Assembly: GCA_963808895.1 (NCBI GenBank)
Contig: CAWEHL010000004.1
Location: forward strand, 559,972-623,971
Length of the DNA stretch: 64,000 bases
Source: an uncultured Chloroflexia bacterium
Lineage (GTDB): Bacteria; Chloroflexota; Limnocylindria; Limnocylindrales; CSP1-4
Direction of reading: 5' to 3'
Positions within the stretch are counted from its first letter, which is position 1. The number at the start of each line of letters is the position of its first letter. The notes beneath the pieces are model-generated. The model was given only the letters and a program-made list of their open reading frames with translations, had not been told where the DNA came from and searched no databases. The position numbers and the translations under genes are program-made. Positions 10,663 to 24,231 of the stretch are shown here, in pieces.

Positions 10663-10702
10663 GAACCCCGCTCGATGAGTCACCTCCGACCGAGCGGGGT
10701 TC
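10663..10702. other. perfect 12-bp inverted repeat (gaaccccgctcg / cgagcggggttc) with 16-nt loop, in a 550-nt lower-GC non-coding stretch
   Basis: read directly from the sequence; lies upstream of the kinase operon on the minus strand. Confidence 0.5.
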
Positions 10703-11015: not shown

Positions 11016-11270
11016 CTAGACGAGATAAATCGCAACTAGGCCGTCACTGCGGCAGTTTCCTCGTGTTGTGCTGCTCCACGATCCAGGCCGCGGCGCGGTA
11101 CCAATACTCCGGGTCCTCGGTATGGATGCCGGCAGCGCGCGGTGTGTTTCCCAGGCATCGAGCCACGCGTCGGCCGACTCTGGCGGCATGGCGTGGTTCA
11201 TGAGCCATCCGCGGATGGTCAGTCGCCGACCTTCGTAGCCCCGGCCATGCTCATCGCGTCGGTACTTCAC
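11016..11270 (-). CDS. small hypothetical protein, tandem paralog family T copy A
   Basis: ...RRLTIRGWLMNHAMPPESADAWLDAWETHRAL; paralogous motifs in the next two copies. Confidence 0.35.
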   Translation of the reverse strand: MKYRRDEHGRGYEGRRLTIRGWLMNHAMPPESADAWLDAWETHRALPASIPRTRSIGTAPRPGSWSSTTRGNCRSDGLVAIYLV

Positions 11271-11297
11271 GCTCCCGTTCGCCTGGACCTCCGCTGT

Positions 11298-11507
11298 TCA
11301 TCGATCCACGCGATACCTGCGCCCCAGTTGTCGGGCGACGCACGGTCGACCCGCGAACCTCGGCCTCGACCTCCCAGGCATCGCACCACGCCTCGGCGCG
11401 CTCCAGCGATATCCCGTGTCCGTTAGCCCATTGCGCATCGGGACGCGACGCGCCATGAAGATGCGGTTAGGGTCAGCGCGCCTCGACATGTGGTAAGTGT
11501 CGCCCAA
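11298..11507 (-). pseudogene. family T copy B, frameshifted
   Basis: MSRRADPNRIFMARRVPMRNGLTDTG then +1 frame ISLERAEAWCDAWEVEAEVRGSTV; aligns with copy A (RR-L/V-T/P-I/M-R...E-S/R-A-D/E-AW-L/C-DAWE). Confidence 0.3.
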
Positions 11508-11923
11508 CGGCCGTCAGCTAGTCTGTCGCGGCCCCGGCTGGACCGCTGGCTCGCTATCCCGCTAATCCCCCAGCGGGTCAACCTGTCGCGGCCGACCGGG
11601 GCCCTCCGATGTAGCGGGCACGTAATCCGTAGGTCGGCCTACGCCATTTCTCGGTCGACCGCGTCAGCCCTAGATTCTCGACGTGCGCGGGCGCTCGAAA
11701 TCCGGTGTTGTCGATCTCGACCCAGGGCTCCGGATCATCTGCATCCCGTCGACTGACGCTGAGATCTGCGGCGTCGTCGAGCGCCTGTACAAGTCAATCT
11801 CGTGGGTGACCCCCGACAGGCTCGAGGCCGCGCTACGTGACATCTACCCCAACGCCGTCGTTCGGCGTCGCGAACGATCCGGCGACCCGATGCCGACGTG
11901 GTACGTGTTCCGCGAGCGAGGCG

Positions 11924-12244
11924 CTAGCGGGCTGGACTGACGGCTAGGTCGGTAGCTTCCTCGTCTTCCGCTGGTCCTTGATCCAGTGCGCGGCACCCTT
12001 CCAGTAGTCGGGATGAGCCGTTCAAATCCCTGTCGATCGGCCTGTTCTCGCACGCGTCGACCCACGCCTCGGCCGTCGCCCGGCCATCCCATCTGGCACG
12101 AGACGACTTTCGAGTCGCCGTCGCGAGTCGCCTTGCTGGTGACATTCCCGAACGCTTTGCCAAATTCGCGCCGTTTACCATGACCAGGGACCTCGATGAG
12201 CATGAGCAAACCTTGCGCGCCGCCTGGACCGAAGCATTCGCCAT
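11924..12244 (-). pseudogene. family T copy C, divergent and frameshifted
   Basis: ...ARWDGRATAEAWVDACENRPIDRDL in one frame and ...VVSCQMGWPGDGRG in another. Confidence 0.25.
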
Positions 12245-12932
12245 CGCGAGGGACCTCGGGGCGGGCTACGTCGGGACCGACATGCTGTTGATGGGCTTGA
12301 CCCGCACCGAGGGTGCGGCCGCGGAGGTACTTGCCGCGGCCGGCGCGACAGAGGCCGCTGTCGCGGCGATCGTCACACCGACGAATCGTGACGGAGCGAT
12401 GCCGGCAGACGGAGGCGAATGCCGGCGCATCCGCGCCTGAGTCCCGCGGCGCAAGAAGCACCGGGTCGCGCGGAAGAGGATGGGCATCGCTCTCGGCGTC
12501 GCCGACGGATCGATCCGCCTACTACTCGCCCTCACCTACGACCGCGACGGTATTCACAGCTCGCTCCTACGCCGCGTAGGCATCGACCGTGGGGTCCTCG
12601 TGCAGGCGCTCGCTGATAGCGGCGTACGGGTCCCCCCTAGACCACCCCCGCCCGACCGGACCCCGCACTCCGTATGGGTGACCCTCCCGGACCATCAGGC
12701 GCGCGTCGTGGCGGCCGAACTGGCGCGCCGCTCGACCGAGGACATGGACTATTGGTTCGACTCGTGGGGCGGCGCCAGCTGGGGATACGGCGGCGTCGAG
12801 GACCGGCCCGGTGAGGCACGGATCTACGGCGAGGAGCGGATCGACCTGCCCACTCTGGTGCCGGAAATCCTTGCCGCAAGTGGCTACCCGCCGCCGCCAG
12901 ACGATTCCTCGGAGACCCACCGAGAGGTCTAG
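12180..12932 (+). pseudogene. Clp N-terminal (Clp_N) double-repeat domain protein interrupted by an in-frame TGA at 12438-12440
   Basis: repeat 1 LLMGLTRTEGAAAEVLAAAGATEAAV; stop; repeat 2 LLLALTYDRDGIHSSLLRRVGIDRGVLVQALADSG in the same frame. Confidence 0.45.
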
Positions 12933-13002
12933 GCCCGATGATCGCCCGGTTTCAAGCCCTGCAGTCCATCCACTCTCGTTGGCGACGACGCCATGGGCGC
13001 CC

Positions 13003-13550
13003 CTACACACGTGCGAGCGCCGGAGGTCTCTTCGCGCCCTCGATCAAGAGCCATACAAAGGGGATCAATAGACTGAACACGCCGAGATTCGGAATCGTGA
13101 TTGCAAGGAAGGCGCCAGCCGCGCTGATCAGGTGGTACGCGTAAGGATCGGAATAAGTGCCCAGCCGATAAGCCGCGTCCTGCCCTCGGTGCCCAGGAGC
13201 AAGAGACCGATGAACCAGACGTCGATCCCGAGTACGAGTAGATGTTCCGGCCAATTCCCGAGCAAACCGAACGCGATGTCGTGCAGCGTGGCGTTCTCGG
13301 GAAAGATACTGCTGAGCGCCTGAAGCAGGAAGACCACGGCAAAAAGTCCTGCCGACACGGCCCCTATCACGTCGATCCAACGGGGCAGTCCGAAGTCAAA
13401 GACCGCCCTCACGAACAGCAGCATGCCGACGCCAAGGACGAGATGGACAACGATGTCGGGCGCGCGCTCCCCGAATGCTTGGGACGCCACCGCCAGTGGC
13501 AACGACAGCAGCATGGTGATGGCGGACGAAACCGCCCAGATGGATCTCAT
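13003..13550 (-). CDS. hypothetical integral membrane protein, apparent frameshift near 13170
   Basis: strongly hydrophobic throughout; frame A ends ...LLLGTEGRTRLIGWALIPILTRTT*, frame B continues ...YSDPYAYHLISAAGAFLAITIPNLGVFSLLIPFVWLLIEGAKRP. Confidence 0.4.
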
Positions 13551-13996
13551 GTCATACCTCGATGGCGCCGATCCCCGAAACTTGCGGCAGACCTTACCTT
13601 CGCGGCCGAAGCACCGAAAATGAGCGCAACACCCTATTGGGATGTCCGGCCGGGGCCTAGGTTCGCCGTCAGGAACCTTCGGGCCACGCGGAGGTTGGAC
13701 CGTCGACCGGGAGTCGGCGGCGACTTCGCCGTCGCGACTGGGATCTCACTCCTTGCGTCGAGCATGCGGCCCGCGGTTTGTGTCCGCCCTACCAGCGGGC
13801 GGGCTCGCGATCTGGTGGACTCACTGGCTGTTCCATTTCGTCGAGCGCCAATCGCTCCCACTCCGACCGCAGCTCCTGCTCAATCAATCGGAGCCGGAGC
13901 CATTCGGCGGTCCAGGGCAGGGCGTCATCAAAGGCGCGCTTGGCGTCGTACCACGCGGCGTACGCCTCGGATGGCGCGGCGTCGGCATCGTTGTTG

Positions 13997-14194
13997 CTAT
14001 CCCCTCGACCGGCGCGGGTCGGGCCGACCGATCCGGACTCGGCCGCCCCGGCCCTTTACCACGAGCTCGCCGCCACCGTTCGCCAGTTGCCGTCGAGCTG
14101 CTTGCTCGGCTTCCTGTTGCGTCCTGAACGTTTGCTGCTCGCCCGTCACCTGCCAACCGCCGCCGCTCTTTGGTCCGACCGTCACTCTCGCCAT
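13997..14194 (-). CDS. DUF2188 family small protein
   Basis: MARVTVGPKSGGGWQVTGEQQTFRTQQEAEQAARRQLANGGGELVVKGRGGRVRIGRPDP matches the DUF2188 pattern (GGW.V....F.T..EA...A..LA....ELV.HG.dG.IR); aggaag SD. Confidence 0.6.
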   Translation of the reverse strand: MARVTVGPKSGGGWQVTGEQQTFRTQQEAEQAARRQLANGGGELVVKGRGGRVRIGRPDPRRSRG

Positions 14195-14203
14195 GGTCGC
14201 TTC

Positions 14204-14425
14204 CTATTCGCTTTCGTCGGACGACTCCGGGTCGATGCTTTCCGACTCGTCGATTGCGCCGCGTTGTGCTGGGGGGCGATCACCCTTCAGCCGCCGATCG
14301 CGCTCTACGTCGCCTTGCGCCTCGTCAGCCTCGCGCCATCGTGGAGAGTCCCAATCCACGTCGGACGGGTCCGACGTGCCTCGGTCGTCTGGGCCGTCAG
14401 CCGAACTCCGGCGACCTTCGTCCAT
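14204..14425 (-). CDS. small highly acidic hypothetical protein
   Basis: 73-aa D/E/S-rich ORF 9 nt upstream of DUF2188, divergent from the ligase gene; could be chance. Confidence 0.25.
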   Translation of the reverse strand: MDEGRRSSADGPDDRGTSDPSDVDWDSPRWREADEAQGDVERDRRLKGDRPPAQRGAIDESESIDPESSDESE

Positions 14426-15109
14426 GGCATGTCGCCTCCGAGTAGATGTCTACGCGCCGATATCATGGGCGGATGTCCCGGCGGTCGTCCCACAACTCGT
14501 CGCCAACGACGGAACAAGGGCATTGCGACAGGCGATCGCCGATCCGGATCGCTTCGCCTGCGAGCCGAACGTTCGATGGCGTCCGCGGCCTCGTCATCTA
14601 CCAGCCGGAACACGTTCTCGAGATGCGCAACCGGCGCGGCGAGAAGCGCGATTGGTTGCGCGGAGACCCGTTCGAGAGAGGTCTCCGACGCCTAGCCGAG
14701 CGACTCCCGAACCTCTGGGAAGGGACCGTCCTCGACGGAGAGCTGACCGCCGGACGGTTCGAAGGAACCATGTCGGCGCTGCTCGGGTCCAAACGGTTCC
14801 GACCATCGCTGCGGTTCGTCGTGTTCGACGTGCCGATGTTGCTCGGCGCGGACCTCCGCGGGCCTGCCCTGGCAGGACCGGCGTGAACGGCTCGAACTCC
14901 TCGCCCGTGCCTTCGACGTGCCGTTGGAACTCAGCGCGCTTGTTGATCCGTCCGTGTCGCTCGTCGAGCAGATGACGGATGGTCGGCTCGAGGGCATCGT
15001 TCTCAAGGACCGGACGTCGACCTACCGCGACGGATCGCGGGCAGGGTGGACCAAGGTCAAGGACCGATCGTGGTACGAGCGCGAGGCGTGGCGCTTCGAC
15101 CGCCGCTAA
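14424..15109 (+). pseudogene. minimal ATP-dependent DNA ligase (nucleotidyltransferase domain only, ~215 aa) disrupted by two +1 frameshifts
   Basis: frame 0 MACRLRVDVYAPISWADVPAVVPQLVANDGTRALRQAIADPDRFACEP; one extra c near 14588 shifts into motif I (EP-K-FDGVRGLVIYQ), then VLDGELTAG (motif IV); second extra c near 14865 shifts into LPWQDRRERLELL...EGIVLKDRTSTYRDGSRAGWTKVKDRSWYEREAWRFDRR* (motif V); no OB domain. Confidence 0.7.
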
Positions 15110-15222
15110 CAAGGGGTGGGAGTACCCTGTACGGGCGTCCCGTCCGAGTGCCTCCCGCACGCGACGATTAGCGGGTGCCCCGAGGCCACTCCCCATTGCC
15201 CAATGATGGCAAGACGAACGGT

Positions 15223-15465
15223 GTCGTGCCGGAGCTGACGACGACGTCGGCGGCCCTGACCGAATGGCGGGAAGCCGAACGTTCGGTCGCCGTCGCGCGC
15301 CGCGGACGGGTCGCGGCACAGGCGGCGATGGACGCCGCTGTGCTGGCCACCCAGGCCGCGCAGCGGACTGCGGCGGCGGCCAAGGCGGCCCTCGAGTCCG
15401 CGACATTCGCGCAGGCATCAGCCACGGAGACCGCGACAGCGGCGCGCGTCGTGGTGCGCGGTTGA
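15223..15465 (+). CDS. small Ala-rich coiled-coil protein
   Basis: [79 protein letters not shown]; stop TGA overlaps the next start (TTGA); start codon uncertain. Confidence 0.35.
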
Positions 15466-15776
15466 GTGATCATCCCGCGTTGCCGGCCCTCGAGCCAGAC
15501 GAGGAAATCCGTGTCCGGGTAAGCGCTGGCGACAGCGTCGTCATCCTGACGGACAAGCGGCTCGCGATCGCGTCTCAGGACAATCTCGCACTCGATGTGC
15601 CGCTCGAAAATCTGCTCCGGATCGAGTTTGATATCGAGCGCGGCCGTGGAGCGACACTCGTCATCTTTCCGATGCAGCCGGAGGATATGCCGCAGGTCGT
15701 CATGGTCCCTGCTTCCGCTTACGAGGCCGTCGCCCAGGCACTCGTAGTGATCGGGCGGAGACTCTCGCTCGCGTAG
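15462..15776 (+). CDS. small hypothetical protein with PH-domain-like pattern
   Basis: [60 protein letters not shown]; coupled to upstream gene. Confidence 0.4.
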
Positions 15777-16139
15777 GCCGTCGCGTCCCCGGGCTTTCCG
15801 CGGTCAACCCGCCGCGCTGCAAATCCCTGGAAGCGGCAGGTAAGCGCAGACAGGTACGCTGCCACGACCCCCGCTCCGCGTCCCGGTCCTTCGATCTCGG
15901 GCCACCGGCCAGTCGGTCGGCGCCGACCAACGCTAGCGCGCGGGATCAGGGCTCGGGGATAGGGACCTCCCACGGCTGTCACCGAAGGTCGCATCCCACC
16001 GCGACTTGTGCGGCTCGGGTAGCCGAGGTCGACGGACCCGATGGCCCACATTCTGTCCGCGCTGCGGCAACGGTCTTGCGGCCGTGATGGCGCCCAGATG
16101 GGTGTGGCACCAAGGCTGACCACGACGCGGGGTTGCGGG

Positions 16140-16484
16140 TTACTCCGTCCGATCGTTTGGGCTGTCCACGACCTCGCGAGCCCATTGGTACGCGGCGGCC
16201 GTCGCAGGAAATCCGGCCGTTGGGATCGCGATCGTGATAGCGTGCAGGAGGTCGGGCGCATCGATTCCCTCGCTCAGTCCTCGTCGGACATGGGAGCGTA
16301 CGCCCCCCTCCGACGACAACCCGACCGCCAGCCCGAGTTTCACAAGACGCTGTTCGCGATCGCTCAAAGGGCCGGCGCGCCGGCACACATCGCCGAGCGC
16401 GTCGTACGCCCTAGCGAGCTCAGGGTTTTCCGCACGAAGGTCTCGGTACACCCGTGGTAGGTAGCCGCGTCGCTTCTCGGTCAT
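16140..16484 (-). CDS. carboxymuconolactone decarboxylase (CMD/AhpD-like) family protein
   Basis: LPRVYRDLRAENPELARAYDALGDVCRRAGPLSDREQRLVKLGLAV...HVRRGLSEG; full-length 114 aa. Confidence 0.85.
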   Translation of the reverse strand: MTEKRRGYLPRVYRDLRAENPELARAYDALGDVCRRAGPLSDREQRLVKLGLAVGLSSEGGVRSHVRRGLSEGIDAPDLLHAITIAIPTAGFPATAAAYQWAREVVDSPNDRTE

Positions 16485-16918
16485 GGTCCGCTCCTCTCGC
16501 CTCTTCGTCCGGACCTATGATCATGCCTCGTCGCGCCAACCATTCGGCTCAGGCCCTACGGAGCGCCCCAACGCTCGGCCTGCGGGCGACACGGGCTCGG
16601 AGTCCCGTTGAGAGCGTGACTGCGCACGAGCTGAGTCCACGTCCTCGACGATTGACTCGTACGCCGCCCCAAGGTCCCGTCGATCGTTCGCACCCTGAGC
16701 CACTCGTCCGTCCCAGGCATGGCAAGCGCGGGCTTGGCTGCGTGCTGCGCCTCATACGCCTCAAATCGGTGCGGCCCCGGTCGCCATCAGGACTCCATCG
16801 CTATCCGTTCCATGCGCGATGTGTCGATCTCCGACTTCGACCTGATCGCGGATTCGCCTCCGCGGTCGCGTGGCGACCCTGGACGGCGCTAGCGGTCGGG
16901 GATCGGCCCGGGACGTGA

Positions 16919-17029
16919 GTACGCGCTTCGGTCGGCGTACCCATCGGTAAGGTCCAGAGCGAGCTCAGCGGCGTGCGGGCGCCGACCTGGTACGCCTACC
17001 GTGACGGCCACTTTCCGTGGCCTTCGTGA
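16919..17029 (+). pseudogene. possible remnant of an AlpA/excisionase-type HTH protein (no start codon)
   Basis: open frame VGVPIGKVQSELSGVRAPTWYAYRDGHFPWPS* resembles the recognition helix and C-terminus of AlpA/Xis-family HTH proteins (...LGVSRSTVYRWI.EG.FP.P); only ~35 aa; speculative. Confidence 0.2.
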
Positions 17030-17039
17030 CGCTAAGCTG

Positions 17040-17110
17040 ACTCGGCCCCGGCCCCGGTCCCGGACCTCGATACGTCTCCTCCCCCGAGCCGTCAGTCAGT
17101 CCGGGCCGAC
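17040..17110. repeat. dispersed repeat family D, copy 3
   Basis: ctcggccccggccccggtcccggacctcgata...gtccgggccgaccgg. Confidence 0.45.
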
Positions 17111-17328
17111 CGGGTTCTGCTCGGGGGCTGATCCCCAGCGGTGACGTCCAGCAGCGCGCCGAGAAGGAGGATGATCTCGTCCTGATTGTTCACGATCCGC
17201 TCGAGCGTTTCGCTGGTCGCATGGAGTAGGTCGCGGATCTCAGTCAGACCTCGTGGGTGCCAGCCCCGGCGATCACTGTGGTGCCCGACGTATCCGCGGT
17301 CAGCTGGCACGTTCTCGTCAGTAGCCAT
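17092..17328 (-). CDS. small hypothetical protein
   Basis: helical-looking LTEIRDLLHATSETLERIVNNQDEIILLLGALLDVTAG; follows the upstream small gene by 26 nt. Confidence 0.3.
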   Translation of the reverse strand: MATDENVPADRGYVGHHSDRRGWHPRGLTEIRDLLHATSETLERIVNNQDEIILLLGALLDVTAGDQPPSRTRSARTD

Positions 17329-17353
17329 CGTTTGCCGCTCCCGTGGTCCGGGG

Positions 17354-17576
17354 CTATCGCCTGACGTTCGAACGGACGGGCTGTCCCTTCGGATCGGTCA
17401 GCTTGTAACCCGCCTCGTCCAGCTCGCCATCCGCGAACAACGCAAGGTGCTCCAGGTACCGTTTGCCGGTCTCGCTCGTCACCCCACAGGCGCAGACGAT
17501 GCGGGTTCCGACCACGGCCTTGGGTGGATGGTTGTCGATCGCCATCAAGATAATCTCGCCGACCGTATGTGCCATT
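17354..17576 (-). CDS. small putative winged-helix DNA-binding protein
   Basis: MAHTVGEIILMAIDNHPPKAVVGTRIVCACGVTSETGKRYLEHLALFADGELDEAGYKLTDPKG resembles wHTH regulators (RYLE.L...G.L....Y.LT..G); start taken at the internal ATG of ORF 17354..17656. Confidence 0.4.
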
Positions 17577-17671
17577 GGGTCCCACCTCTGAGCAGGGTCT
17601 AGGGTATCGCCCGAGGCCCGCGCTGCGCGGCGATCCAGTCCCAGCGCGCCCGCCATGCGGAGCCCGTCCTG

Positions 17672-17750
17672 CGCGGGTCGGCTGGTTGAAGGTCAAGGAC
17701 CGCAGCTGGTACGAGCGCGAGGCGTGGCGGTTCGATCGCCGCTCGCTACC
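17672..17750 (+). pseudogene. remnant of ATP-dependent DNA ligase 3' end (ligase-tail copy 3), direct repeat of 15040-15109
   Basis: ...RVGWLKVKDRSWYEREAWRFDRR then read-through; about 55 of 62 nt identical to the end of the ligase gene 2.6 kb upstream, same orientation. Confidence 0.5.
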
Positions 17751-18312
17751 CGTTCGGAGCCAGACCTAGGTCGTCCCGAACGATCGCGGCCTTGTCGGCG
17801 ACAGCGTCGGACGCGCGGTTCGCTGACGCCTGCAAGGAGATAGCGTCGGCCAGCGTCTTGGCTCGGGCCACTGACTTAGCGGGTCGCTGGTACACGATGT
17901 CGGCCTTGATCAGAGCTCGGATGTCGGCTTGGACCTCTGGCGGCCAAGCCACCTTCTTGAGTCCGTCGATGAACTTGTCGTCCGCCTTCGCGATGATCGC
18001 CCAATACGCCCTATACCCGCGAAGTGACGTACTGCCGCCATACAACTAGTCTGCACGGCGGCCCGCGGCGTTGACAGCCTTCGCGAGCTGGTAGTACGCC
18101 GATGCCGCTTGTTTGATGGTCAGGAACGAGGGTGTGGGCGACGCCGCGGCGCTTGCTGACGGCGCGGGCTGTGACGCGGGCGGACCAGGACTCGCAGGCA
18201 CTGGTGTCACTACGATCACGATCGGAGTCGGAGTCGGAGTCGGAGGCGGTGCGGCTTGAGCTGCCCCGCACCCCGCGACAATGAGCACGGTCGCAACGAG
18301 CAAGAGCCTCAT
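17746..18312 (-). pseudogene. lipoprotein (signal peptide, Pro/Thr-rich linker, globular domain) split by an in-frame TAG at 18046-18048
   Basis: MRLLLVATVLIVAGCG lipobox; PPPTPTPTP linker; ...AYYQLAKAVNAAGRRAD * LYGGSTSLRGYRAYWAIIAKADDKFIDGLKK... continues in the same frame. Confidence 0.45.
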
Positions 18313-18327
18313 CCGCGGTCCCTCCGC

Positions 18328-18561
18328 TCAGCCCTCTACGTCGAAAGTGTCGGGGACGACGTCAAGCCACGCTGCGAGCGCGGCCCGCGGCGCCTCTAGC
18401 GCCGAGCGACGCTCCCGGGCGTCTATCGACAGCCACGGGTAGCCGAGGACGTACCAGCGGCCGTCCTCGGCCTGCATAGCGCGGTACACGGGCCGTTCAC
18501 CACGGGCGATCGTCCGGATGGCGGCCTGACGCGCCACTCGCTGTCTATCGGCCTCGGACAT
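18328..18561 (-). CDS. small conserved hypothetical protein, paralog family S copy 2 (77 aa)
   Basis: MSEADRQRVARQAAIRTIARGERPVYRAMQAEDGRWYVLGYPWLSIDARERRSALEAPRAALAAWLDVVPDTFDVEG; >90% nt identity to copy 1 over ~130 nt. Confidence 0.5.
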   Translation of the reverse strand: MSEADRQRVARQAAIRTIARGERPVYRAMQAEDGRWYVLGYPWLSIDARERRSALEAPRAALAAWLDVVPDTFDVEG

Positions 18562-18744
18562 CGCCGCGTCTCGTCACCCGCCGATTGTGAACGAATGTTC
18601 TAGCCAGGTGTTGCCCTAACGCACCACGCCTGGACTCGTTGTCAGAGGTGCGGGGTCCCCGTCCCGCAAAGACGCCCCGGTGTGCGGTGCCCGTGGGGGG
18701 AACGCATACCGGGGCTTTCGTGTGGACGCCGCGACGACGCCGCA

Positions 18745-18832
18745 GCCGTAGCCCGTCGCCCCCGGCTCCGGTCCGCAGACTCGCGATCCTCGGGTCCCCC
18801 CGCGAGCCAGCCTGGCGCGGCGACCGGGGCTC
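18745..18832. repeat. dispersed repeat family D, copy 4
   Basis: gccgtagcccgtcgcccccggctccggtccgcagactcgcgatcctcgggtcccccc...gccagcctggcgcggcgaccggggctcagacgttg; ~85% identical to 22445-22555. Confidence 0.55.
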
Positions 18833-18857
18833 AGACGTTGATCCCGAAGAGCGTTCG

Positions 18858-19412
18858 TCAGTCTCGCCCGAACGTCCAGCGCGTAGGCTTGTGGTGGCGG
18901 TCGTCCTCGAACATTCCCTGCATCCCCGGGAGGCCGAAGACCGTGGTCGGCTCGAGCCGGTAGATCGCGTAGGGCGCCGGTCCCGCGGTCGGGCCATGGG
19001 GGCCGTACACGTCGCTGCCGCGTGCCTCGAGCGGCCAGCCCTCTCCACCGAACTCCTGGGCCAGCCGTTCGACGGTCGACTCGTCGGTGATCCGCCTCGC
19101 GCGACCCTCAACGATGAGGTCCATTGACGGGAGGGCCAGGTTCCCCGTCCCGATCACGCAACGCTCGTCAGCGGCCAGGTTCCGCCCCTTGCGCGTGCTC
19201 TGTCCCGCCAGAAAGTGGAATGCGCCGTCCATCCAGAAGGCGATGATCGGCATGAGGTGCGGCGCCCCGTCCGGCCGAACCGTCGCAAGCCAGTGGTTCT
19301 GTCCCGGCGCCGGATGCTCCAGCCGGTCCAGCGCGACGTCCCACGGCGTCGTCTCCGTCTGGCCGTCGACCATGGGCCTCTCGGATTTGGGGGCGCGAGA
19401 CTCGGCGGTCAT
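18858..19412 (-). CDS. pyridoxamine 5'-phosphate oxidase (PPOX-class) family protein
   Basis: WLATVRPDGAPHLMPIIAFWMDGAFHFLAGQSTRKGRNLAADERCVIG. Confidence 0.75.
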   Translation of the reverse strand: MTAESRAPKSERPMVDGQTETTPWDVALDRLEHPAPGQNHWLATVRPDGAPHLMPIIAFWMDGAFHFLAGQSTRKGRNLAADERCVIGTGNLALPSMDLIVEGRARRITDESTVERLAQEFGGEGWPLEARGSDVYGPHGPTAGPAPYAIYRLEPTTVFGLPGMQGMFEDDRHHKPTRWTFGRD

Positions 19413-19707
19413 CGGGTCGGTCCTCCTCTTCGGTGGCAGTCAGGTTGCTGGTGCCCTCGCTCTCGTCCATGCTCGAACGGGCATTGGGCCGCGACCCTTC
19501 GCGCATATTTGCGCGCGACCTTCACACGTGCGCTGCTAATGGGAGACGAGCGGCATGTTCCGGTCCGGCCAGGGATGTTCCTCGTGGCATTGTCGCTTGG
19601 TTCGTGCTCAACGCCCCCGACTAGACGCCGTCGGACTTACAGGAGACGGCAGCGCGATACGCTCGTCTGACGATCGCGGCGGAGGAGTGATCGACAGGAG
19701 CCAGACA

Positions 19708-20394
19708 GTGGCACGAGTGGTCTCGATCTGTGCGTGGCTGGCGGCGATCTTGCCCCTGGTCGCGTTGGTCGCCTTCGCGGCGGCCTACGACTTCGATGTC
19801 GGTCGACTCGCGGACCTGCCGTCGGTGGTCGGCACCGATCGCGGTTTCGTCATCCGGATCGCGGGCCTGCTCGACATGACCGCGTACCTGGTGACCATTC
19901 CCGTCGTGCTGTATCTCCATCGACGGTTCGAAGGCGCCGGGTCGGACGTCCTCGGGCTGGCGACCTTCTGTGGTCTGGCGTATGCCGTGCTCGGCAGTCT
20001 CGGCGGAGCGACGTTCGCGACGGTCGCCCCGCCACTCATCGACGACGGGTCCGAGGCCGCCCGTGTCACGTTCGCGGCCACCACGACGTTCGTGACCGTC
20101 ACCATCTGGTCCACGCTCGAGTCGATCTTCCTCGGCGTCTGGCTGCTGGGCATCAATCGACTTCTACGCCCACAGCTCGTCGGCCTGGGGACGCTCGGGA
20201 TCGTGGCGGGTATCGGGGCGCTGCTCTCCGCGGTCCGGAGCGGCCTGACGGGACAATCGGTTGCAGACCTGGCTGGACCGGTCGATCTCGTGGTGGTCGG
20301 ATTGCTCGGACTCTACGTGCCCTGGTTCGCTTGGCTTGGCGTCGAGCTCTTCCGAGGACGCAGCAGTGTCCACTCACGGATTGTCCATTCCTAG
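19708..20394 (+). CDS. hypothetical polytopic membrane protein (DUF4386-like)
   Basis: six or more hydrophobic helices; GTG start after gacaggag SD; identity of family tentative. Confidence 0.5.
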   Translation: MARVVSICAWLAAILPLVALVAFAAAYDFDVGRLADLPSVVGTDRGFVIRIAGLLDMTAYLVTIPVVLYLHRRFEGAGSDVLGLATFCGLAYAVLGSLGGATFATVAPPLIDDGSEAARVTFAATTTFVTVTIWSTLESIFLGVWLLGINRLLRPQLVGLGTLGIVAGIGALLSAVRSGLTGQSVADLAGPVDLVVVGLLGLYVPWFAWLGVELFRGRSSVHSRIVHS

Positions 20395-20403
20395 CGCGGG
20401 CCA

Positions 20404-20552
20404 AGGACCGGACCCCGACCTACCGCGACCCAGGCTCGAGGTTCGACCAGAACGTTACGGACTTCCGTGCGGAGGAGGAGTTCGGCTTCAACGCGACGCC
20501 GTATGTCGCGACCGGCAAGTTCGTGAAGATCCTCGGGCTCGAGCACGCCTGA
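20404..20552 (+). pseudogene. composite remnant: ligase motif-V piece (AKDRTPTYRDPGS) joined to family X 3' end (RFDQNVTDFRAEEEFGFNATPYVATGKFVKILGLEHA*)
   Basis: aaggaccggaccccgacctaccgcgac matches ligase aaggaccggacgtcgacctaccgcgac; downstream 100 nt ~92% identical to 2706-2809. Confidence 0.45.
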
Positions 20553-20563
20553 GGAGGCCTGGA

Positions 20564-22088
20564 TCAATCCAACCGCGAGCCAGGAGGCTTCGATTGCCGC
20601 TCGTCATAAACGGACGCCCCAGGGGGCAGCCCGGAGCATCCGCCGGAGCTCGTGCGGCGCCGCCTCGCTAGGAGCTGGACCGCGTCTTCGTGCTGCGCCC
20701 TGCTGTCGTAGCCAGTCGTGGGCGGCAGTGTCGTCGTCGAAGTCGCCGCTCCTTCCTGCTCGCGCGTCTTGGCTTCCATCTCACGCTCACGCTCTCGTTC
20801 GGCCCGCTCTGCCTCGCGAGCCTGACGGTCCTGCTCCGCCTGGGCCTTCTTGGCCTCCGCTTCCTCCTGGCGCTGGCGTTCGGTCTCATCGACCTTGGAG
20901 CGGAGATCCTCGAGCACCGGTGCGCTGATGCCCGGTCCCGATGCGGCCTCGAGGGCGGCCTCGCCGCGCTTCTCGGCTCGCATCTCGTCGCGTTCGAAGG
21001 CGACCTCGCCCTTGAAGACGGATGCAAGCAGGCTATCGAGCGCGCCCGCGTCGTGGGCCCGCTGGACCGCCGCATGGGTGATCAGATCACCGAGGTCGAG
21101 GATGACGCGATCCTCGAGGTCCAGCATCACCTTCGTGACGGGCCGGCCGACAGCATCCTCGATCTCGTCCAGCCGGCGCTTGGTCTGCTCGTGGTCGACG
21201 CGCTGACCAGCCGCGTCGGTCATCTCGCCGACCTTGCGCGTGAACTTATCCCACAGGCTCGCGGCATTGTCGCCGGCCGCGCCGAGCGCATCCTTGGCGT
21301 TGGCTGCGGCCAGGCTTGCCTCGCCCACGCCGACTGCCGTCGTCAGGTCCGCCAACTTGTCGGCTGCTCGGGCACGTTCGATGTCGTCGTTCGTGACCCG
21401 CCGTCCGGCCGGGACCACGACCGCGCCGTCGTCATCCTCGACGTCGCGGCCGGTGCGCTTACCGAGGAGGGCATCCTCGGGCCTGGCACCTTCCGTTGCG
21501 GACTTCGCGCCGGCGGCGGCCTCACCCGCCGCGGTCTTGGCCTTGTCGCCGACATCGGCGAGGGCACCGCTGATACCGCCCCGCTGCTGCTCGAGCAACG
21601 CGGCGGTCTCGGGATGGACGTAGGCGACATCCTTGCCGACCCGCACGAGCTCCTCGATGGGAACGTATCGCGTCCCGTGCGCCGCATCGGTGAACATCCC
21701 GCCGGATAACTCCAAGCCGAGGATTCGACCTGTCGCATCATCGAAGTAGACGTCGTTGATCTTGCCCTGGTCGTCGCCGGTCTCGGTGAACACCCGTGTC
21801 CCGAGCAGCGACTGGTCGCGCGCGACGATCGACTCGATCTCGGGAGCCTCCTTCGCGGCTATCACACTCTCGCGCCGCGCGACGACCACCGCGTCGCGGC
21901 CGAAGCTGACGACTTCCGCGAAGGGCACGACGAGCGAACTCGCGAGGAACCCTCCCTCGTCCGCAAGCAGTCCGACGACGGTGTCGTTGCCGCTCCCCAG
22001 GATGACGTCCCTGCACCTCGTGCACACGCTCCCCGTCCGCCAAGCTCAGGAGAGGCTTGCCGACCACGCTCTTGCCCTTGCGCATCAC
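20564..22088 (-). CDS. PRC-barrel domain protein with long charged/coiled-coil C-terminal region; apparent +1 frameshift near 22015
   Basis: MRKGKSVVGKPLLSLADGERVHEVQ then an extra g (caggGacgtc) shifts into DVILGSGNDTVVGLLADEGGFLASSLVVPFAEVVSFGRDAVVV; second PRC barrel GKINDVYFDDATGRILGLELSG. Confidence 0.65.
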
Positions 22089-22444
22089 AAGCCTCCTAAA
22101 GGATCGGCGTGAAGAAGTAGAGGAAGGCCACGACCGCGAGGATGACTAGCACCACCAGCACGAGTGCGGTCAAGCGTCCACGGCTCGACGTCCCTTGGAG
22201 CCTCATGCCGACGAGCCCTCCGACGCGATCTCGCCACCTACCGGGGGCGATCGCGATACGAGAATGTGATCCGTCCACCCTGCCCTTCGATCGTGCCGAC
22301 TCCGTTGGTGTTGAGCAAGGGCGTTCACCTTTGCTGGTGGGGGGCTGGCCCGCCGGTCTCAGACGTTGCCGGACCACGCCTTCGTCCGGTCCCATGAAGA
22401 CTGGTGTGCGGCGCTCTTGGGCGACGTACGCGTCACGCAACGAG

Positions 22445-22555
22445 CGAGCCGTAGCCTGTCACCACCCCGGCTCCGGTCCGCAGACTCGCGATCCCCAGGT
22501 CCCCCCTTGGGCCAGCCTGTCGCGGCCGACCGGCGCTCATAGCGCCAACGTCAAT
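22445..22555. repeat. dispersed repeat family D, copy 5
   Basis: gagccgtagcctgtcaccaccccggctccggtccgcagactcgcgatccccaggtcccccc...gccagcctgtcgcggccgaccggcgctcatag. Confidence 0.55.
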
Positions 22556-22598
22556 GCCAGTCGGCTGGGTAATCGGACCGGGCTAGACTCGGTTGTTA

Positions 22599-22834
22599 TG
22601 ACAGCAGGCAATCAAGGGTCGGGTCGCCTCCGGGCTAGGTGCGACGTATGCGACGAGGAGTTCATCCTCGGGGACGACGTGATTGCGACCGTCGCGCGCG
22701 ACCGGGACTATCGGATACGAGCGATCGAGGTGTTCCTCTATCACGCGGACCACTGGAAACCCGAGAAGCACCGGGGCGAGGTCAAGATCATTCAAGGCGG
22801 TTTCACCGAGCCCGGTCCCGCAGAAGAAGACTAG
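22599..22834 (+). CDS. small hypothetical protein (78 aa)
   Basis: MTAGNQGSGRLRARCDVCDEEFILGDDVIATVARDRDYRIRAIEVFLYHADHWKPEKHRGEVKIIQGG; lower-GC upstream region; followed by a lower-GC spacer. Confidence 0.35.
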
Positions 22835-22920
22835 AGCGTATTCCGGACAGCCGATAACAGGCTAGCGGACGGTGGGGATGCCGCGAATGTATAAGCGGCT
22901 AGTACGGCGGTAGGGCGCTC

Positions 22921-22963
22921 GCTCATGTCAAGCAAGTGCTCTAACCAGCTGAGCTAGCCGCCC
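22921..22963 (-). pseudogene. degenerate 5' half of a tRNA-Val(GAC)-like gene (pseudo-tRNA; acceptor stem, D-arm, anticodon loop only)
   Basis: minus strand reads GGGCGGC-TA-GCTCAGCTGGTTAGAGC-A-CTTGC-TTGACAT-GAGCG; canonical acceptor and D-arm; anticodon loop TTGACAT (GAC); anticodon stem mispaired; no T-arm follows; lower-GC flank. Confidence 0.45.
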
Positions 22964-23162
22964 GAGTCGCCGGTCTCCCGGCCGTCGTGACTGCCCGATC
23001 GGTGGCTCACGGGTGTTCCACGTCCGTGCCGGTCGGATAGCCCCAGCGGTCGAGTCGCCAGCGGCCCGGAGATGCTACCAGAGGGTGCGTGCGAGCGACA
23101 ACGACGCGAGGACCCCTCGGCGTCCGCTCGCGCAAGCGCGTCGCGTTCGGCCTTTGGCCGAT

Positions 23163-23345: not shown

Positions 23346-23394
23346 ACGAACCTCCTTCTCACTCCCTGCATTCCCATTCGGCGTCGCCGGGCGG

Positions 23395-24231
23395 GTGGTT
23401 TCCCGTGATGATGCGCTCGTGGAGGACTACGAGCTCATCGATGCCGGCGACGGCCGTCGGCTGGAACGGTTCGGCCGGTATGTCCTCGACCGACCATACG
23501 CGGGCGCCGACAGTCCTCGGCGCACGCGGGAACGGTGGGATGACGCGGATCTGCGGTTCGAGCGGGACGCCGGCTGGAGCGGTCCGGCAGCGGAGGCGGC
23601 GAGCGAGGGATGGACGGTCGACATCGGCGATCTCCGGTTCGAGCTCCGACCGACGGCCGCCGGACAGGTCGGGCTGTTCCCCGAGCACGCCGTGCTGCTG
23701 CCATGGCTCCGCGAACGCGTGGCCACGACCGGTGCCGCGCCCGCCGTGCTCAACCTCTTCGCCTATACCGGCTTGATCAGCCTCGCCCTGGCGAAGGCCG
23801 GGGCGTCGGTCGTGCACGTCGACGCGGCGAAACCCTCGGTCGACTGGGCCCGCCGCAACGCTGCGCTGGATGCGCTCGACGATCGCCCGATCCGCTGGCT
23901 CGTCGATGACGCGCGTGCCTTCGTCGCGCGCGAGCGCCGTCGCGAGCGCCGCTACGACGGCGTCGTCCTGGACCCACCGACGTATGGGCACGGCGCGTCG
24001 GGCAAGACGTGGAGGCTGGAGCGCGACCTCCCTCCCCTGCTTGACGACATCCAGCGCATCCTGGCCCAGGGCGGCTTTCTGCTCCTGACCGCGCACAGCG
24101 AAGCGCTGGATCCGTTCACGCTGGGCGGCTTCCTCGGCCGCGACGTCGAGATCGGCGAGCTCGTCATCAGCGCGACGTCCGGCGCACTGCTTCACCTTGG
24201 GGCCTTCGCCCGGATCGCGGCCGCATCATGA
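23395..24231 (+). CDS. class I SAM-dependent methyltransferase (RlmI/RlmK-like RNA methyltransferase catalytic half)
   Basis: VLNLFAYTGLISLALAKAGASVVHVDAAKPSVDWARRNAA...YDGVVLDPPTYG; GTG start at 23395. Confidence 0.65.
   Translation: MVSRDDALVEDYELIDAGDGRRLERFGRYVLDRPYAGADSPRRTRERWDDADLRFERDAGWSGPAAEAASEGWTVDIGDLRFELRPTAAGQVGLFPEHAVLLPWLRERVATTGAAPAVLNLFAYTGLISLALAKAGASVVHVDAAKPSVDWARRNAALDALDDRPIRWLVDDARAFVARERRRERRYDGVVLDPPTYGHGASGKTWRLERDLPPLLDDIQRILAQGGFLLLTAHSEALDPFTLGGFLGRDVEIGELVISATSGALLHLGAFARIAAAS

What the first reader, a model, noticed from the sequence alone, without database searches (positions are those of the whole stretch)
22840..22970. Pseudo-tRNA-Val 5' half with lower-GC flank, a likely island boundary
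On the minus strand, 22963 down to 22921 reproduces a canonical tRNA acceptor stem, D-arm and a TTGACAT anticodon loop (Val-GAC). The anticodon stem is mispaired and no T-arm or 3' acceptor follows. The 80 nt to the left are markedly lower in GC (ttatacattcgcggcatcc...). Everything to the left of this point is the scar-rich mosaic region, and everything to the right is mostly intact core genes. Partial tRNA copies usually mark an attachment site of an integrative element. A 5' rather than 3' partial is unusual and worth a look.
Basis: seen in the sequence. Interest (0 to 1): 0.6.

Follow-up and report, generated by a model that had tools for sequence, protein, structure and literature searches.

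The report
Phage attachment scar in tRNA-Val gene
The half tRNA is the leftover front part of this bacterium's tRNA-Val(GAC) gene, cut in its anticodon loop when a phage-like element inserted there, so it marks the true edge of a decayed prophage island; this is a real but already known, uncommon kind of insertion.

Summary
Window 22963→22924 (minus strand) is identical to the first 40 nt of the tRNA-Val(GAC) gene that relatives (Chloroflexota, Limnocylindria) carry at this position, on this strand, upstream of the same methyltransferase gene. Homology with those relatives starts at 22924 and runs right for more than 11 kb. Nothing to the left is syntenic.

The ~95 nt left of the break (22829-22923) is a conserved element arm. 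It abuts the same tRNA position in at least 7 independent assemblies and carries the motif GTTATCGGCTG. In 1.5 Mb of comparison DNA that motif occurs only in such arms.

Related viral contigs show the mechanism. A tyrosine integrase lies beside an attP that contains a tRNA 5' half (L088, L091, L093). One complete integrated element (L175) reads host flank, 5' fragment (1-40), arm, element, integrase, intact tRNA-Val, native downstream flank, with the break after GACATG as here.

The window therefore shows the fragment end of a "5'-fragment" island, a class known from Islander (159 of 3919 islands). The island (at least 22.9 kb) holds decayed prophage pieces and no integrase. Its other end, where the restored tRNA is expected, lies outside the window and was not seen.

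By-products: a structured leader RNA and repeated hairpins, neither with an Rfam match.

The parts
22924..22963 (-). Displaced native 5' fragment (nt 1-40) of tRNA-Val(GAC): acceptor 5' strand, D arm, 5' anticodon stem, anticodon loop TTGACAT and one further G.
   Evidence: Identical to intact tRNA-Val(GAC) of relatives up to GACATG. Unique in the window, 0 in shuffles. No ARAGORN call. Rfam tRNA 19.7 bits against a gathering score of 29.
22829..22923 (-). Element-side arm (P'-type arm of the attachment site). It starts AGCGAGCGCCCTACCGCCGTACTAGCCGCTT and is lower in GC.
   Evidence: The same arm abuts tRNA nt 40 in L018, L005, L082/83/86, L084/85 and L087. Homology to the intact-tRNA relatives ends at its right edge.
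22848..22858 (-). GTTATCGGCTG, a candidate arm-type integrase-binding motif, about 70 nt from the crossover.
   Evidence: One hit in the window, 0.03 expected. The 9 hits in 93 loci (about 1.5 Mb) all lie in arms 57-90 nt downstream of a tRNA 5' half, including the integrase-bearing L088 and L093. L175 has the variant CAGTTATCGCGGT at about +70.
22598..22834 (+). Small ORF (78 aa, no family) inserted between the arm and the hairpin. It is antisense to read-through from the orphaned tRNA promoter.
   Evidence: Homologues at 90-96% identity (P0001-P0004). Present in L081 and L087. No Pfam or NCBIfam match.
22452..22535 (-). Terminal copy of a roughly 75-90 nt GC-rich hairpin ('C'). Homology with the close relative L087, and with L081 and L018, ends just beyond it.
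   Evidence: nhmmer E 3.8e-18. Break of homology after ...GACAGGCTA. Long hairpin in every copy, -35 to -60 kcal/mol.
22964..23066 (-). Native upstream leader of tRNA-Val(GAC). It is retained intact and conserved with relatives, and is a structured RNA.
   Evidence: About 94% identical to L001-L003. 25-pair consensus structure: 90.8% of cells paired against 79% in shuffles, 0 of 500 shuffles as high; slid controls 31-47%. No Rfam hit.
23072..23080 (-). TGGTAGCAT, an extended -10-like box in front of the leader. Probably the native promoter, now orphaned.
   Evidence: The block GGTAGCAT/GGTATGAT is conserved in all 17 aligned relatives. The consensus scan found no full sigma-70 match, so this is inferred.
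1..22923 (.). Island: decayed, mosaic prophage-derived and cargo DNA that runs off the left edge of the window. No integrase and no second tRNA-Val copy.
   Evidence: No synteny with relatives. Pfam on 31 ORFs finds sigma factor, kinase fragments, cyclase, hydrolase and similar, with no integrase or transposase. No homologue of the L088 integrase. GC about 66.7% against about 71% to the right.
20376..20540 (+). Remnant of the C-terminus of an HK97-type major capsid gene. A second remnant lies at 2599-2805 (+).
   Evidence: tblastn with the L088 capsid protein (Pfam Phage_capsid 8.7e-19): E 3e-11 for this copy and 4e-21 for the second. The two copies are 94% identical over 98 nt.
14446..15109 (+). 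Frameshifted ATP-dependent DNA ligase gene. Three further C-terminal stubs lie at 262-338, 3580-3743 and 17671-17743.
   Evidence: Pfam DNA_ligase_A_M 9.2e-6. NCBIfam NHEJ ligase 4.4e-9. Repeat family A.
18749..18830 (-). Further C hairpin. Others lie at 17033-17115, 11519-11601 and 6533-6617, with a weak one at 15846-15928. All have the same orientation.
   Evidence: nhmmer E 2e-12 to 2.5e-15. Weak copy.
23380..24231 (+). First core gene right of the boundary, a SAM-dependent methyltransferase. It was used as the synteny anchor.
   Evidence: Pfam Methyltrans_SAM 1.4e-12. 145 relatives found, 80 loci fetched.

Best explanation
The feature is the fragment-bearing junction of an integrative, phage-derived element that inserted into the chromosomal tRNA-Val(GAC) gene.

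Insertion was by tyrosine-integrase site-specific recombination, with the crossover in or at the 3' edge of the anticodon loop. This element family carries the 5' half of the tRNA plus its own upstream promoter region in its attP, directly beside a divergently transcribed integrase gene.

Integration therefore leaves the host's own promoter, leader and tRNA nt 1-40 stranded next to the element's P' arm. That is what the window shows at 22829-23080.

A working tRNA is rebuilt at the other end of the element from the element-borne 5' half and the host 3' half, with the integrase next to it.

In this genome the junction is old. It is shared with a relative that is about 90% identical. The DNA behind it (1-22.9 kb) is a decayed, repeatedly remodelled pile of prophage remnants and cargo genes.

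Shown:
- the identity of the fragment;
- the exact breakpoint;
- the conserved arm and its motif;
- the attP and integrated architecture in related elements.

Inferred:
- that this particular island still ends, beyond the window, in a restored tRNA-Val(GAC) with an integrase;
- that GTTATCGG repeats are integrase arm sites.
For: 1. Fragment and synteny.
- The window is identical to nt 1-40 of the intact tRNA of relatives and then diverges.
- The intact gene sits at the same place and strand in 34 of 40 relatives scanned.
- BLAST homology with L001, L002 and L003 starts at 22924 and runs 8-11 kb to the right at about 84% identity.

2. Recurrent junction. The same arm follows tRNA nt 40 in L018, L005, L082/83/86, L084/85 and L087. 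These lie next to different host flanks and come from independent assemblies.

3. Motif. GTTATCGGSTG occurs once in the window and only in such arms across 1.5 Mb of loci.

4. attP-like arrangements with a tRNA 5' half.
- L088 carries a tyrosine integrase (Pfam 1.2e-31). Divergent from it lies a tRNA(CAT) 5' half, then an arm with CAGTTATCGGCTGAG, then a C hairpin. The contig also encodes an HK97 capsid.
- L091 has a 48%-identical integrase and a Gln-like 5' half.
- L093 has a 46%-identical integrase, and both contig ends are a 44-nt repeat containing tRNA-Val(GAC) nt 1-40.

5. Complete integrated copy. L175 reads host flank, 5' fragment 1-40, arm, about 11 kb of element, integrase, P arm, intact tRNA-Val(GAC), then the native downstream flank GCGTCGAGCGGGAC. 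The break is after GACATG, as in the window.

6. Smaller integrated examples. L021 and L043 have a native-flank 5' remnant and, 1.8-2.9 kb away, an intact tRNA with a foreign upstream flank. In L043 the native downstream flank motif (GCGTCGAGCGGGAC) follows the intact tRNA.

7. Island content. It includes capsid and ligase remnants of such phages.

8. Precedent. The class is known: 159 of 3919 Islander islands have a 5' tDNA fragment lying upstream of the tDNA (PMC4383910).
Against: - No integrase, no second tRNA-Val copy, no native downstream flank and no downstream-side genes of relatives are present anywhere in the window. The far end was never seen for this island or for any island with this exact arm (family 1).
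- L005 has 9.5 kb and L087 10 kb of island with no intact tRNA.
- The free form (attP) of the family-1 element itself was not found. The arm has 0 hits in IMG/VR.
- The integrase link rests on related elements that share the motif, the hairpin and the breakpoint, but not the whole arm.
- Arm-bearing genomes are interspersed with intact-tRNA genomes in a core tree. Repeated gain or repeated excision must therefore be assumed.
Confidence: 0.8

Rival explanations
1. Non-restoring insertion or dead relic. The element shared only a short core with the tRNA, as in tRNA-dependent lysogeny, or the far junction has since been lost. No tRNA is rebuilt at the island's other end, and tRNA-Val(GAC) function comes from another gene copy or an element-borne tRNA.
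For: - The junction looks exactly like the attL of Fionnbharth-type phages, where the host 5' part meets a non-tRNA arm (PMC10865867).
- No intact tRNA-Val lies within 22.9 kb in the window, 10 kb in L087 or 9.5 kb in L005.
- In L005 the fragment is already decaying.
Against: - Related elements carry the whole 40-nt 5' half, not a 10-bp core: the L093 repeat is 44 nt and the L175 repeat about 54 nt.
- L175, L021 and L043 do rebuild the tRNA.
- No tRNA of any Val isotype lies in the 22.9 kb of island seen.
- GUC/GUU decoding is expected to be needed in a 68% GC genome (own knowledge).
Confidence: 0.17
2. Chance truncation by an unrelated deletion or rearrangement, or an assembly chimera at a repeated tRNA sequence.
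For: The window has no second att copy and no integrase. L018 and several metagenome contigs end near the junction, which is typical of repeats that break assemblies.
Against: - The identical breakpoint and the same arm recur in at least 7 independent assemblies, including a 105-kb and a 3.1-Mb contig.
- The breakpoint coincides with a known integrase crossover sublocation and with that of L175 and L093.
Confidence: 0.02
3. The 72-nt stretch 22892-22963 is a functional T-arm-less tRNA-like RNA. The arm supplies an anticodon-stem partner (GCGAG) and an acceptor partner (GCCGCTT). It could, for example, keep RNase P processing of the upstream leader RNA or act as a decoy.
For: - cmscan aligns a full-length 72-nt match with a 7-bp acceptor stem, two of the pairs G-U.
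- The stem partner is kept through A/G swaps in L084 and L005, and GCCGCTT is nearly invariant in family-1 arms.
- The leader upstream is a conserved structured RNA that stays intact.
Against: - The score is below the Rfam threshold, and there is no T arm.
- The imperfect inverted repeat around the loop is what core-type integrase sites in an att site look like anyway (own knowledge).
- Most other arm families (L007, L093, L175) offer no acceptor complement; L028 contains GTCGCCC (by eye).
- No compensatory changes were seen in the acceptor pairing. L018 has a C-C mismatch.
Confidence: 0.04

Closest known systems
Genomic islands with a displaced 5' tDNA fragment (Islander database class; 159 of 3919 islands; Hudson, Lau and Williams 2015, PMC4383910)
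   Same: - A tyrosine-integrase element inserts in a tRNA gene.
- The element carries the 5' portion, so the displaced host fragment is a 5' piece lying upstream of the rebuilt gene in the same orientation.
- The crossover is centred on the anticodon loop.
- This configuration is seen directly in L175, L021 and L043.
   Different: - Here only the fragment end is in view.
- The host is an uncultured Chloroflexota (Limnocylindria) lineage.
- The island is integrase-less over at least 22.9 kb and heavily decayed.
- The elements also displace a conserved structured leader RNA and carry repeated GC-rich hairpins. I did not find these features described, but my literature check was limited to two full-text searches.
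Classical anticodon-loop ('A' sublocation) tRNA-integrating phages and islands that carry the 3' half (Williams 2002 classification, cited from own knowledge and from the Islander footnote)
   Same: Same crossover region. The 3' remnants in L032, L057 and L058 begin at TGCTTGACATG (L032, L058) or CTGACATG (L057) of the same tRNA. The site has the same symmetric stem-loop-stem architecture.
   Different: Polarity is reversed. In the classical type the intact gene stays next to its native promoter and the fragment is a 3' piece at the far end. Here the native promoter keeps only a dead 5' piece.
tRNA-dependent lysogeny of Fionnbharth-type actinobacteriophages (Guerrero-Bustamante and Hatfull 2024, PMC10865867)
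   Same: The junction consists of the host tRNA 5' part fused to non-tRNA phage DNA. No functional tRNA forms at that junction. The integrase is of the tyrosine family.
   Different: Those phages share only an 8-10 bp core and must bring a complete tRNA of the same isotype. Related elements here share the whole 40-nt 5' half and rebuild the gene at the other junction. No Val tRNA is found in the island part seen.
Tandem accretion and decay at tDNA hot spots (Islander tandem arrays; K. pneumoniae Asn tDNA hot spots, PMC4891358, title and abstract only)
   Same: - The tRNA-Val(GAC) site has been used repeatedly, by at least 3 arm families, in both polarities, with two successive 5' remnants in L018 and L082.
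- The island contains several copies of the same phage gene stubs.
   Different: In the window the internal att copies expected of a clean tandem array are missing. Only one 5' fragment remains.

Membership tests
att junction of a tRNA-targeting tyrosine-integrase element | A tDNA end-fragment identical to the cognate tRNA gene sits at the boundary. | tested here: met
   40 of 40 nt identical to the intact tRNA-Val(GAC) of relatives. Unique and non-random.
att junction of a tRNA-targeting tyrosine-integrase element | Synteny with uninterrupted relatives breaks exactly at the end of the fragment. | tested here: met
   BLAST alignments to L001-L003 start at 22924. Genes from the downstream side of the tRNA in L002-L004 are absent from the window.
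att junction of a tRNA-targeting tyrosine-integrase element | The crossover lies at a recognised sublocation: anticodon loop, T loop or 3' end. | tested here: met
   The break comes after the anticodon loop plus 1 nt. The same point is used in L007, L028, L093 and L175. 3' remnants of the classical type start in the same loop region.
att junction of a tRNA-targeting tyrosine-integrase element | A conserved element-side arm with repeated arm-type motifs. | tested here: met
   The arm is shared by 7 or more assemblies. The GTTATCGGSTG motif is exclusive to such arms. Binding by the integrase was not tested.
att junction of a tRNA-targeting tyrosine-integrase element | An integrase gene lies inside the island. 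| tested here: not met
   No Phage_integrase hit among 31 island ORFs. No tblastn hit for the L088 integrase. The island runs off the window. In the related L088, L093 and L175 the integrase sits at the opposite end.
att junction of a tRNA-targeting tyrosine-integrase element | A second att copy (the rebuilt tDNA) lies at the other end of the island. | tested here: inconclusive
   None in 1-22923. The far end is outside the window, and the source genome is not in the searchable collections.
Island with a 5' tDNA fragment (Islander class) | attP carries the 5' portion of the tDNA. | tested here: met
   Met in related elements only: L088 (CAT tRNA 5' half), L091 (Gln-like) and L093 (Val-GAC nt 1-40). 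The family-1 attP itself was not found.
Island with a 5' tDNA fragment (Islander class) | The 5' fragment lies upstream of, and co-oriented with, the intact tDNA. | not testable with these tools
   Not visible for the window. Seen in L175, L021 and L043.
tRNA-dependent lysogeny | The common core is only about 8-10 bp, so no tRNA is rebuilt. | tested here: inconclusive
   Related elements share 44-54 nt, which argues against. The attP of this exact element is unknown.
tRNA-dependent lysogeny | The element encodes a tRNA of the disrupted isotype. | tested here: not met
   No tRNA lies in window 1-22923. The ARAGORN 'tRNA-Val(CAC)' in L093 is not supported by Rfam.
Functional tRNA gene | Complete cloverleaf with a T arm, scoring above model thresholds. 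| tested here: not met
   ARAGORN makes no call. Rfam scores 19.7 bits against a gathering score of 29, with no T arm.
Integron-like cassette array (considered for the repeated C hairpins) | An integron integrase beside the array; attC sites with RYYYAAC/GTTRRRY cores after single co-oriented ORFs. | tested here: not met
   No integrase was found. The hairpins lack those cores (by eye). Spacing is 1.2-5 kb with genes on both strands. An 11-kb single element (L175) carries 5 such hairpins of its own.

The most novel reading that the evidence does not exclude
Targeting of the 5' side is not incidental.

This phage family swaps out the host's promoter and a conserved, structured leader RNA of about 105 nt that normally precedes tRNA-Val(GAC). 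This uncouples the tRNA from its native control.

The stranded unit of promoter, leader, pseudo-tRNA and arm stays expressed as a functional chimeric RNA. The arm's acceptor-like and stem-like complements, and the downstream hairpin, would then serve its processing or termination.

The leader itself would be a new small RNA class of Limnocylindria.
Probability: 0.1. Interest if true: 0.7.

Novelty: new member of a known kind. Interest (0 to 1): 0.4.

Why it matters
It fixes the right-hand boundary of a genomic island to the nucleotide (22923/22924) in an uncultured soil and freshwater Chloroflexota lineage.

It identifies tRNA-Val(GAC) as a recurrent integration hot spot there, used in both polarities.

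It ties the scar to a concrete family of small tyrosine integrases whose attP carries tRNA 5' halves. This minority mode is about 4% of mapped islands and is poorly described mechanistically.

For annotation, it explains why tRNA finders miss the fragment. It also explains why the integrase is not next to the visible tRNA piece: in this polarity it sits at the far end.

The comparison set also yields testable att sites (core CTTGC-TTGACAT-G, arm motif GTTATCGG) for integrase prospecting.

Two uncharacterised RNA-like elements also turned up: a covarying leader upstream of tRNA-Val, and element-borne GC-rich hairpins.

Tried and rejected
- **Missing 3' half or a second 5' half in the window.** Regex and mismatch searches found nothing credible.
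- **Native downstream flank motif, and downstream-side genes of L002-L004, in the window.** Absent.
- **Walking left of the window through the source genome.** Exact look-up of the TrmH-like protein and a homologue search with the leftmost partial protein both found nothing.
- **Integrase search in 80 related loci by catalytic-motif regex.** Uninformative. By-eye inspection of small inserts in L021, L043, L057, L058, L013, L019, L007 and L028 found only cargo genes and one IS3-type transposase.
- **Conserved arm 21-mer in IMG/VR.** No hits. The L093 integrase alone retrieved only itself.
- **RNAalifold on the first C-hairpin alignment.** It gave an unconvincing consensus because indels put the helices out of register. 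A column-based helix scan failed likewise. Support for the hairpin therefore rests on per-copy folds and compensatory variants read by eye, not on a statistic.
- **Integron-like cassette array for the hairpins.** Rejected (see membership test).
- **ARAGORN's tRNA-Val(CAC) in L093.** Rejected as unsupported by Rfam.
- **Homology of the arm to a decayed tRNA 3' half.** About 12 of 37 identities without gaps, by eye, which is near chance. Rejected.
- **Pfam, PHROGs and NCBIfam on the small island proteins.** No family. My initial impression that repeat family B is HicB-like is unsupported.
Full report
**1. What is at the coordinates**

On the minus strand, 22963→22924 reads GGGCGGCTAGCTCAGCTGGTTAGAGCACTTGCTTGACATG.
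- ARAGORN finds only one tRNA in the window, tRNA-Arg(CCT) at 58828-58903.
- Rfam at gathering thresholds agrees.
- In a permissive Rfam scan the tRNA model aligns 22892-22963 at 19.7 bits, below its threshold of 29 (E 0.67). The acceptor and D arms fit well and there is no T arm.
- The first 28 nt are unique in the window with up to 3 mismatches allowed, and never occur in 100 shuffles.
- GC falls to 55-57.5% over 22780-22899, against 64-72% around it.
- The left 22 kb average about 66.7% GC, and the 10 kb to the right about 71%.

**2. Which organism, and what relatives have here**

The gene just to the right (23380-24231) is a SAM-dependent methyltransferase. It is followed by a SpoU/TrmH-type methylase.

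A scan of one genome per species with the methyltransferase returned 80 loci. Nearly all are Chloroflexota, labelled Candidatus Limnocylindrales/Limnocylindria or 'Chloroflexia' MAGs. The best is 82% identical at the protein level and none is identical.

In 34 of 40 loci scanned, ARAGORN finds an intact tRNA-Val(GAC) upstream of the methyltransferase on the opposite strand, as in the window.

An alignment shows that the window matches that tRNA exactly through ...TTGACATG (nt 1-40). It then diverges. Relatives continue CAAGAGGTCACTGGTTCGAGTCCAGTGTCGCCCACCA, and the window continues AGCGAGCGCCCTACCGCC....

BLAST homology with the three closest intact-tRNA genomes (L001-L003) begins at 22924 and runs 8-11 kb to the right at about 84% identity. 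Nothing to the left aligns.

The fragment is therefore the orthologue of a real tRNA gene, cut after its anticodon loop. It is also a synteny boundary.

**3. The break is a recurrent, site-specific junction**

The same sequence follows tRNA nt 40 in two other genomes of the scan, L018 and L005.

A metagenome scan for its most conserved 21-mer returned six contigs.
- Five contigs, representing two sequence types, show tRNA-Val nt 1-40 plus this arm beside other upstream flanks.
- The sixth (L081) has the arm joined to a truncated SSB-like gene. The join is at a sequence, CTTGCgTGtCgT, that resembles the anticodon stem-loop CTTGCtTGaCaT. It may be a secondary site.

A homologue of the small ORF next to the arm led to L087, a 105-kb contig. 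It is 90.5% identical to window 22467-32709 and has the same junction. Its DNA is entirely different left of 22467.

Across all 80 loci, 5'-only fragments lie next to the native upstream flank in L005, L021, L028 and L043, and in the window. 5'-only fragments with other upstream flanks occur in L007 and L018; L018 has two. At least three different arm families all break after GACATG.

L021 and L043 also have an intact tRNA 1.8-2.9 kb further on. It has a foreign, promoter-like upstream flank, and in L043 it is followed by the native downstream flank motif.

L032, L057 and L058 show the classical opposite case. There the tRNA is intact, and a 3' remnant begins at TGCTTGACATG (L032, L058) or CTGACATG (L057).

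A neighbour-joining tree of about 4.5 kb of core DNA intersperses arm-bearing genomes (window with L087; L018; L005) with intact-tRNA genomes (L001, L002/3, L004). The site has therefore been gained or vacated several times.

**4. What the element is**

The arm contains GTTATCGGCTG (22848-22858).
- The motif occurs once in the window, against 0.03 expected.
- In 93 loci (about 1.5 Mb) it occurs 9 times. Every hit lies 57-90 nt downstream of a tRNA 5' half and in the same orientation.

A roughly 75-90 nt GC-rich hairpin ('C', 22452-22535) follows the arm. A pattern from it hit one IMG/VR contig, L088. L088 reads, in order:
- a tyrosine integrase (Pfam Phage_integrase 1.2e-31 plus an N-terminal SAM-like domain);
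- about 130 nt with two direct repeats, CAGTTAYASACTSAG;
- on the divergent strand, the 5' half of a CAT-anticodon tRNA, ending right after its anticodon loop;
- an arm with CAGTTATCGGCTGAG;
- a C-type hairpin.

The same contig encodes an HK97-type capsid protein and an HNH endonuclease.

Relatives of this integrase in IMG/VR repeat the pattern.
- L091 has a Gln-like tRNA 5' half divergent from the integrase.
- L090 and L111 have intact tRNA-Ala and tRNA-Arg in that position.

L093 (13.8 kb, integrase 46% identical) begins and ends with the same 44 nt, which contain tRNA-Val(GAC) nt 1-40. Its arm carries GTTATGTCC...CAGTTATCGGGTG. Its integrase-side flank is homologous to the 'foreign' upstream flanks seen in L084/85 and L018.

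L175 (11.65 kb) is a complete integrated copy. It reads, in order:
- host flank;
- tRNA-Val(GAC) nt 1-40;
- arm, with CAGTTATCGCGGT at about +70 and a C-like hairpin at about +95;
- about 11 kb of element;
- integrase;
- P arm;
- intact tRNA-Val(GAC);
- the native downstream flank GCGTCGAGCGGGAC, which aligns at 75-88% to chromosomal loci.

The breakpoint, after GACATG, is the same as in the window.

**5. Mechanism**

Shown for relatives, inferred for this island. The element's attP carries the tRNA 5' half with its own upstream region, next to a divergent integrase gene. Recombination occurs in the anticodon-loop region.
- It leaves the host promoter, leader and nt 1-40 joined to the P' arm. 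This is the junction in the window.
- It rebuilds the gene at the far end from the element 5' half and the host 3' half, with the integrase beside it.

This explains why no integrase lies near the visible fragment.

CTTGC pairs with the arm's GCGAG across a 9-nt spacer. This fits the imperfect inverted repeat expected of core-type integrase sites (own knowledge). L088 and L091 show the same 9-nt-spaced pseudo-stem.

Several arms carry a hairpin shortly after the junction. In L007 it is a clear terminator-like stem with a T run. In the window no terminator was detected. A role in stopping read-through from the orphaned promoter is speculation.

**6. The island behind the junction**

Window 1-22923 has short, fragmentary ORFs. 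Pfam finds the following, with no integrase or transposase:
- an ECF sigma factor;
- histidine-kinase fragments;
- a response regulator;
- an adenylate cyclase fragment;
- a hydrolase;
- SRPBCC, PNPOx, Clp_N and PRC-barrel domains;
- a ligase fragment.

Direct repeat families turn out to be stubs of phage genes:
- two capsid C-termini (2599-2805, 20376-20540);
- four ATP-dependent ligase C-termini, one attached to a frameshifted gene at 14446-15109;
- two copies of a small unknown gene (4671-4845, 18359-18532).

This is what several decayed, related prophages would leave. The internal att copies expected of a clean tandem array are missing.

The far end is not in the window. There is no second tRNA-Val piece, no native downstream flank, and none of the downstream-side genes of L002-L004. 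The source genome is not in the searchable protein collection.

**7. Comparison with what is known**

Islander reports 3760 islands with a 3' tDNA fragment and 159 with a 5' fragment. It expects a 5' fragment to lie upstream of the tDNA. It also counts 2083 islands with anticodon-centred sites (PMC4383910). The present case belongs to that minority class.

It resembles the attL of tRNA-dependent-lysogeny phages (PMC10865867). Related elements here, however, share 44-54 nt rather than about 10 bp, and they rebuild the tRNA. No Val tRNA lies in the island part seen.

I therefore file it as a new member of a known kind.
- Confidence that this is a site-specific att junction of such an element: about 0.85.
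- Confidence that a rebuilt tRNA-Val still sits at the unseen far end: about 0.6.

**8. By-products**

(a) A leader RNA. The ~105 nt between a conserved TGGTAGCAT/GGTATGAT box and the tRNA start (window 22964-23066) form a conserved structure.
- It has 25 pairs, and 90.8% of cells are paired, against 79% in shuffles (0 of 500 as high).
- The covariation score is 0.35 against 0.16, and slid controls give 31-47% paired.
- Twelve pairs show compensatory changes.
- It has no Rfam match.
- It remains intact in genomes where the tRNA is truncated.

(b) C-type hairpins. They occur five or six times in the island, all in one orientation. They occur only in loci with this element family: none is found in about 78 other loci.
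- Each copy folds into a long hairpin.
- Variants show compensatory changes in all three helices when read by eye. I could not obtain a clean statistic.
- L175 has five copies of its own version, so the hairpins are intrinsic to the elements.
- Homology between window, L087, L081 and L018 ends right after the first hairpin. This suggests the hairpins bound exchangeable modules.

Noticed in passing
window 22964-23080 (-), and the same position in L001-L003, L006, L009, L010, L016, L020, L023, L028, L031, L043, L047, L062, L072, L074, L021: A conserved, structured leader of about 105 nt lies between a TGGTAGCAT/GGTATGAT box and the tRNA-Val(GAC) start. Its 5' end (GCCGCTGGC) pairs with the sequence just before the tRNA (ACCGGCGAC), and an internal helix covaries strongly. 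90.8% of cells are paired and 0 of 500 shuffles score as high. It has no Rfam match. It stays conserved where the tRNA is truncated. It may be an undescribed small RNA released by RNase P.
   Followed up: partly
window 22452-22535, 18749-18830, 17033-17115, 11519-11601, 6533-6617 (weak: 15846-15928), all minus strand; also L018, L081, L083/86, L084, L087, L088, and a variant in L175: A repeated 75-90 nt GC-rich hairpin with outer stem GCCCCGG/CCGGGGC and apical loop GGGGGGA. It is confined to loci carrying this element family. Compensatory variants are visible by eye. One copy always sits just inside the att arm. Homology between related islands ends right after it. Its function is unknown; it could be a terminator, a regulatory RNA or a boundary for module exchange.
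   Followed up: partly
L081 330-400: The same element arm is fused to a truncated SSB-like N-terminal coding fragment instead of a tRNA. The join is at CTTGCgTGtCgT, which resembles the anticodon stem-loop of tRNA-Val. This may be a secondary attachment site.
   Followed up: no
L032 9210-9243, L057 7161-7194, L058 3445-3478: Classical 3' remnants of the same tRNA-Val(GAC) lie 0.5-4 kb downstream of the intact gene, starting in the anticodon-loop region. The same site is therefore used in both polarities in this clade. The inserts carry GGDEF/EAL and beta-helix cargo genes and no integrase.
   Followed up: partly
window 262-338, 3580-3743, 14939-15110, 17671-17743; 2707-2804 and 20442-20539; 4671-4845 and 18359-18532: Direct repeat families in the island are stubs of the same genes: ATP-dependent ligase C-terminus (4 copies), HK97 capsid C-terminus (2 copies) and a small unknown ORF (2 copies). 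This suggests several decayed copies of related prophages.
   Followed up: partly
L018 3348-3387 and 576-615; L082 1141-1179 and 1742-1781: Two successive tRNA-Val 5' remnants lie in tandem upstream of the methyltransferase gene. The inner one is decayed or shortened. This is as expected from serial integration into the rebuilt tRNA.
   Followed up: partly
window 45396-45768 vs 54396-54018 (inverted, 68%) and 41930-42116 vs 42865-43043 (direct, 68%): Weakly similar repeat pairs in the core part of the window, probably paralogous coding segments.
   Followed up: no
L087 11981-13269: In this close relative the SpoU methylase and the pyridine-nucleotide oxidoreductase are called as short fragments (115 and 120 aa). 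This looks like frameshift errors of the assembly rather than biology.
   Followed up: no
L093 172-1212 (-): The 13.8-kb tRNA-Val-targeting element carries two small ORFs directly inside its att arm. By eye they look like a toxin-antitoxin pair (MerR/DUF433-like and PIN/DUF5615-like), but this was not checked against Pfam. It also carries what looks like a primase-helicase and a prohead protease (by eye).
   Followed up: no
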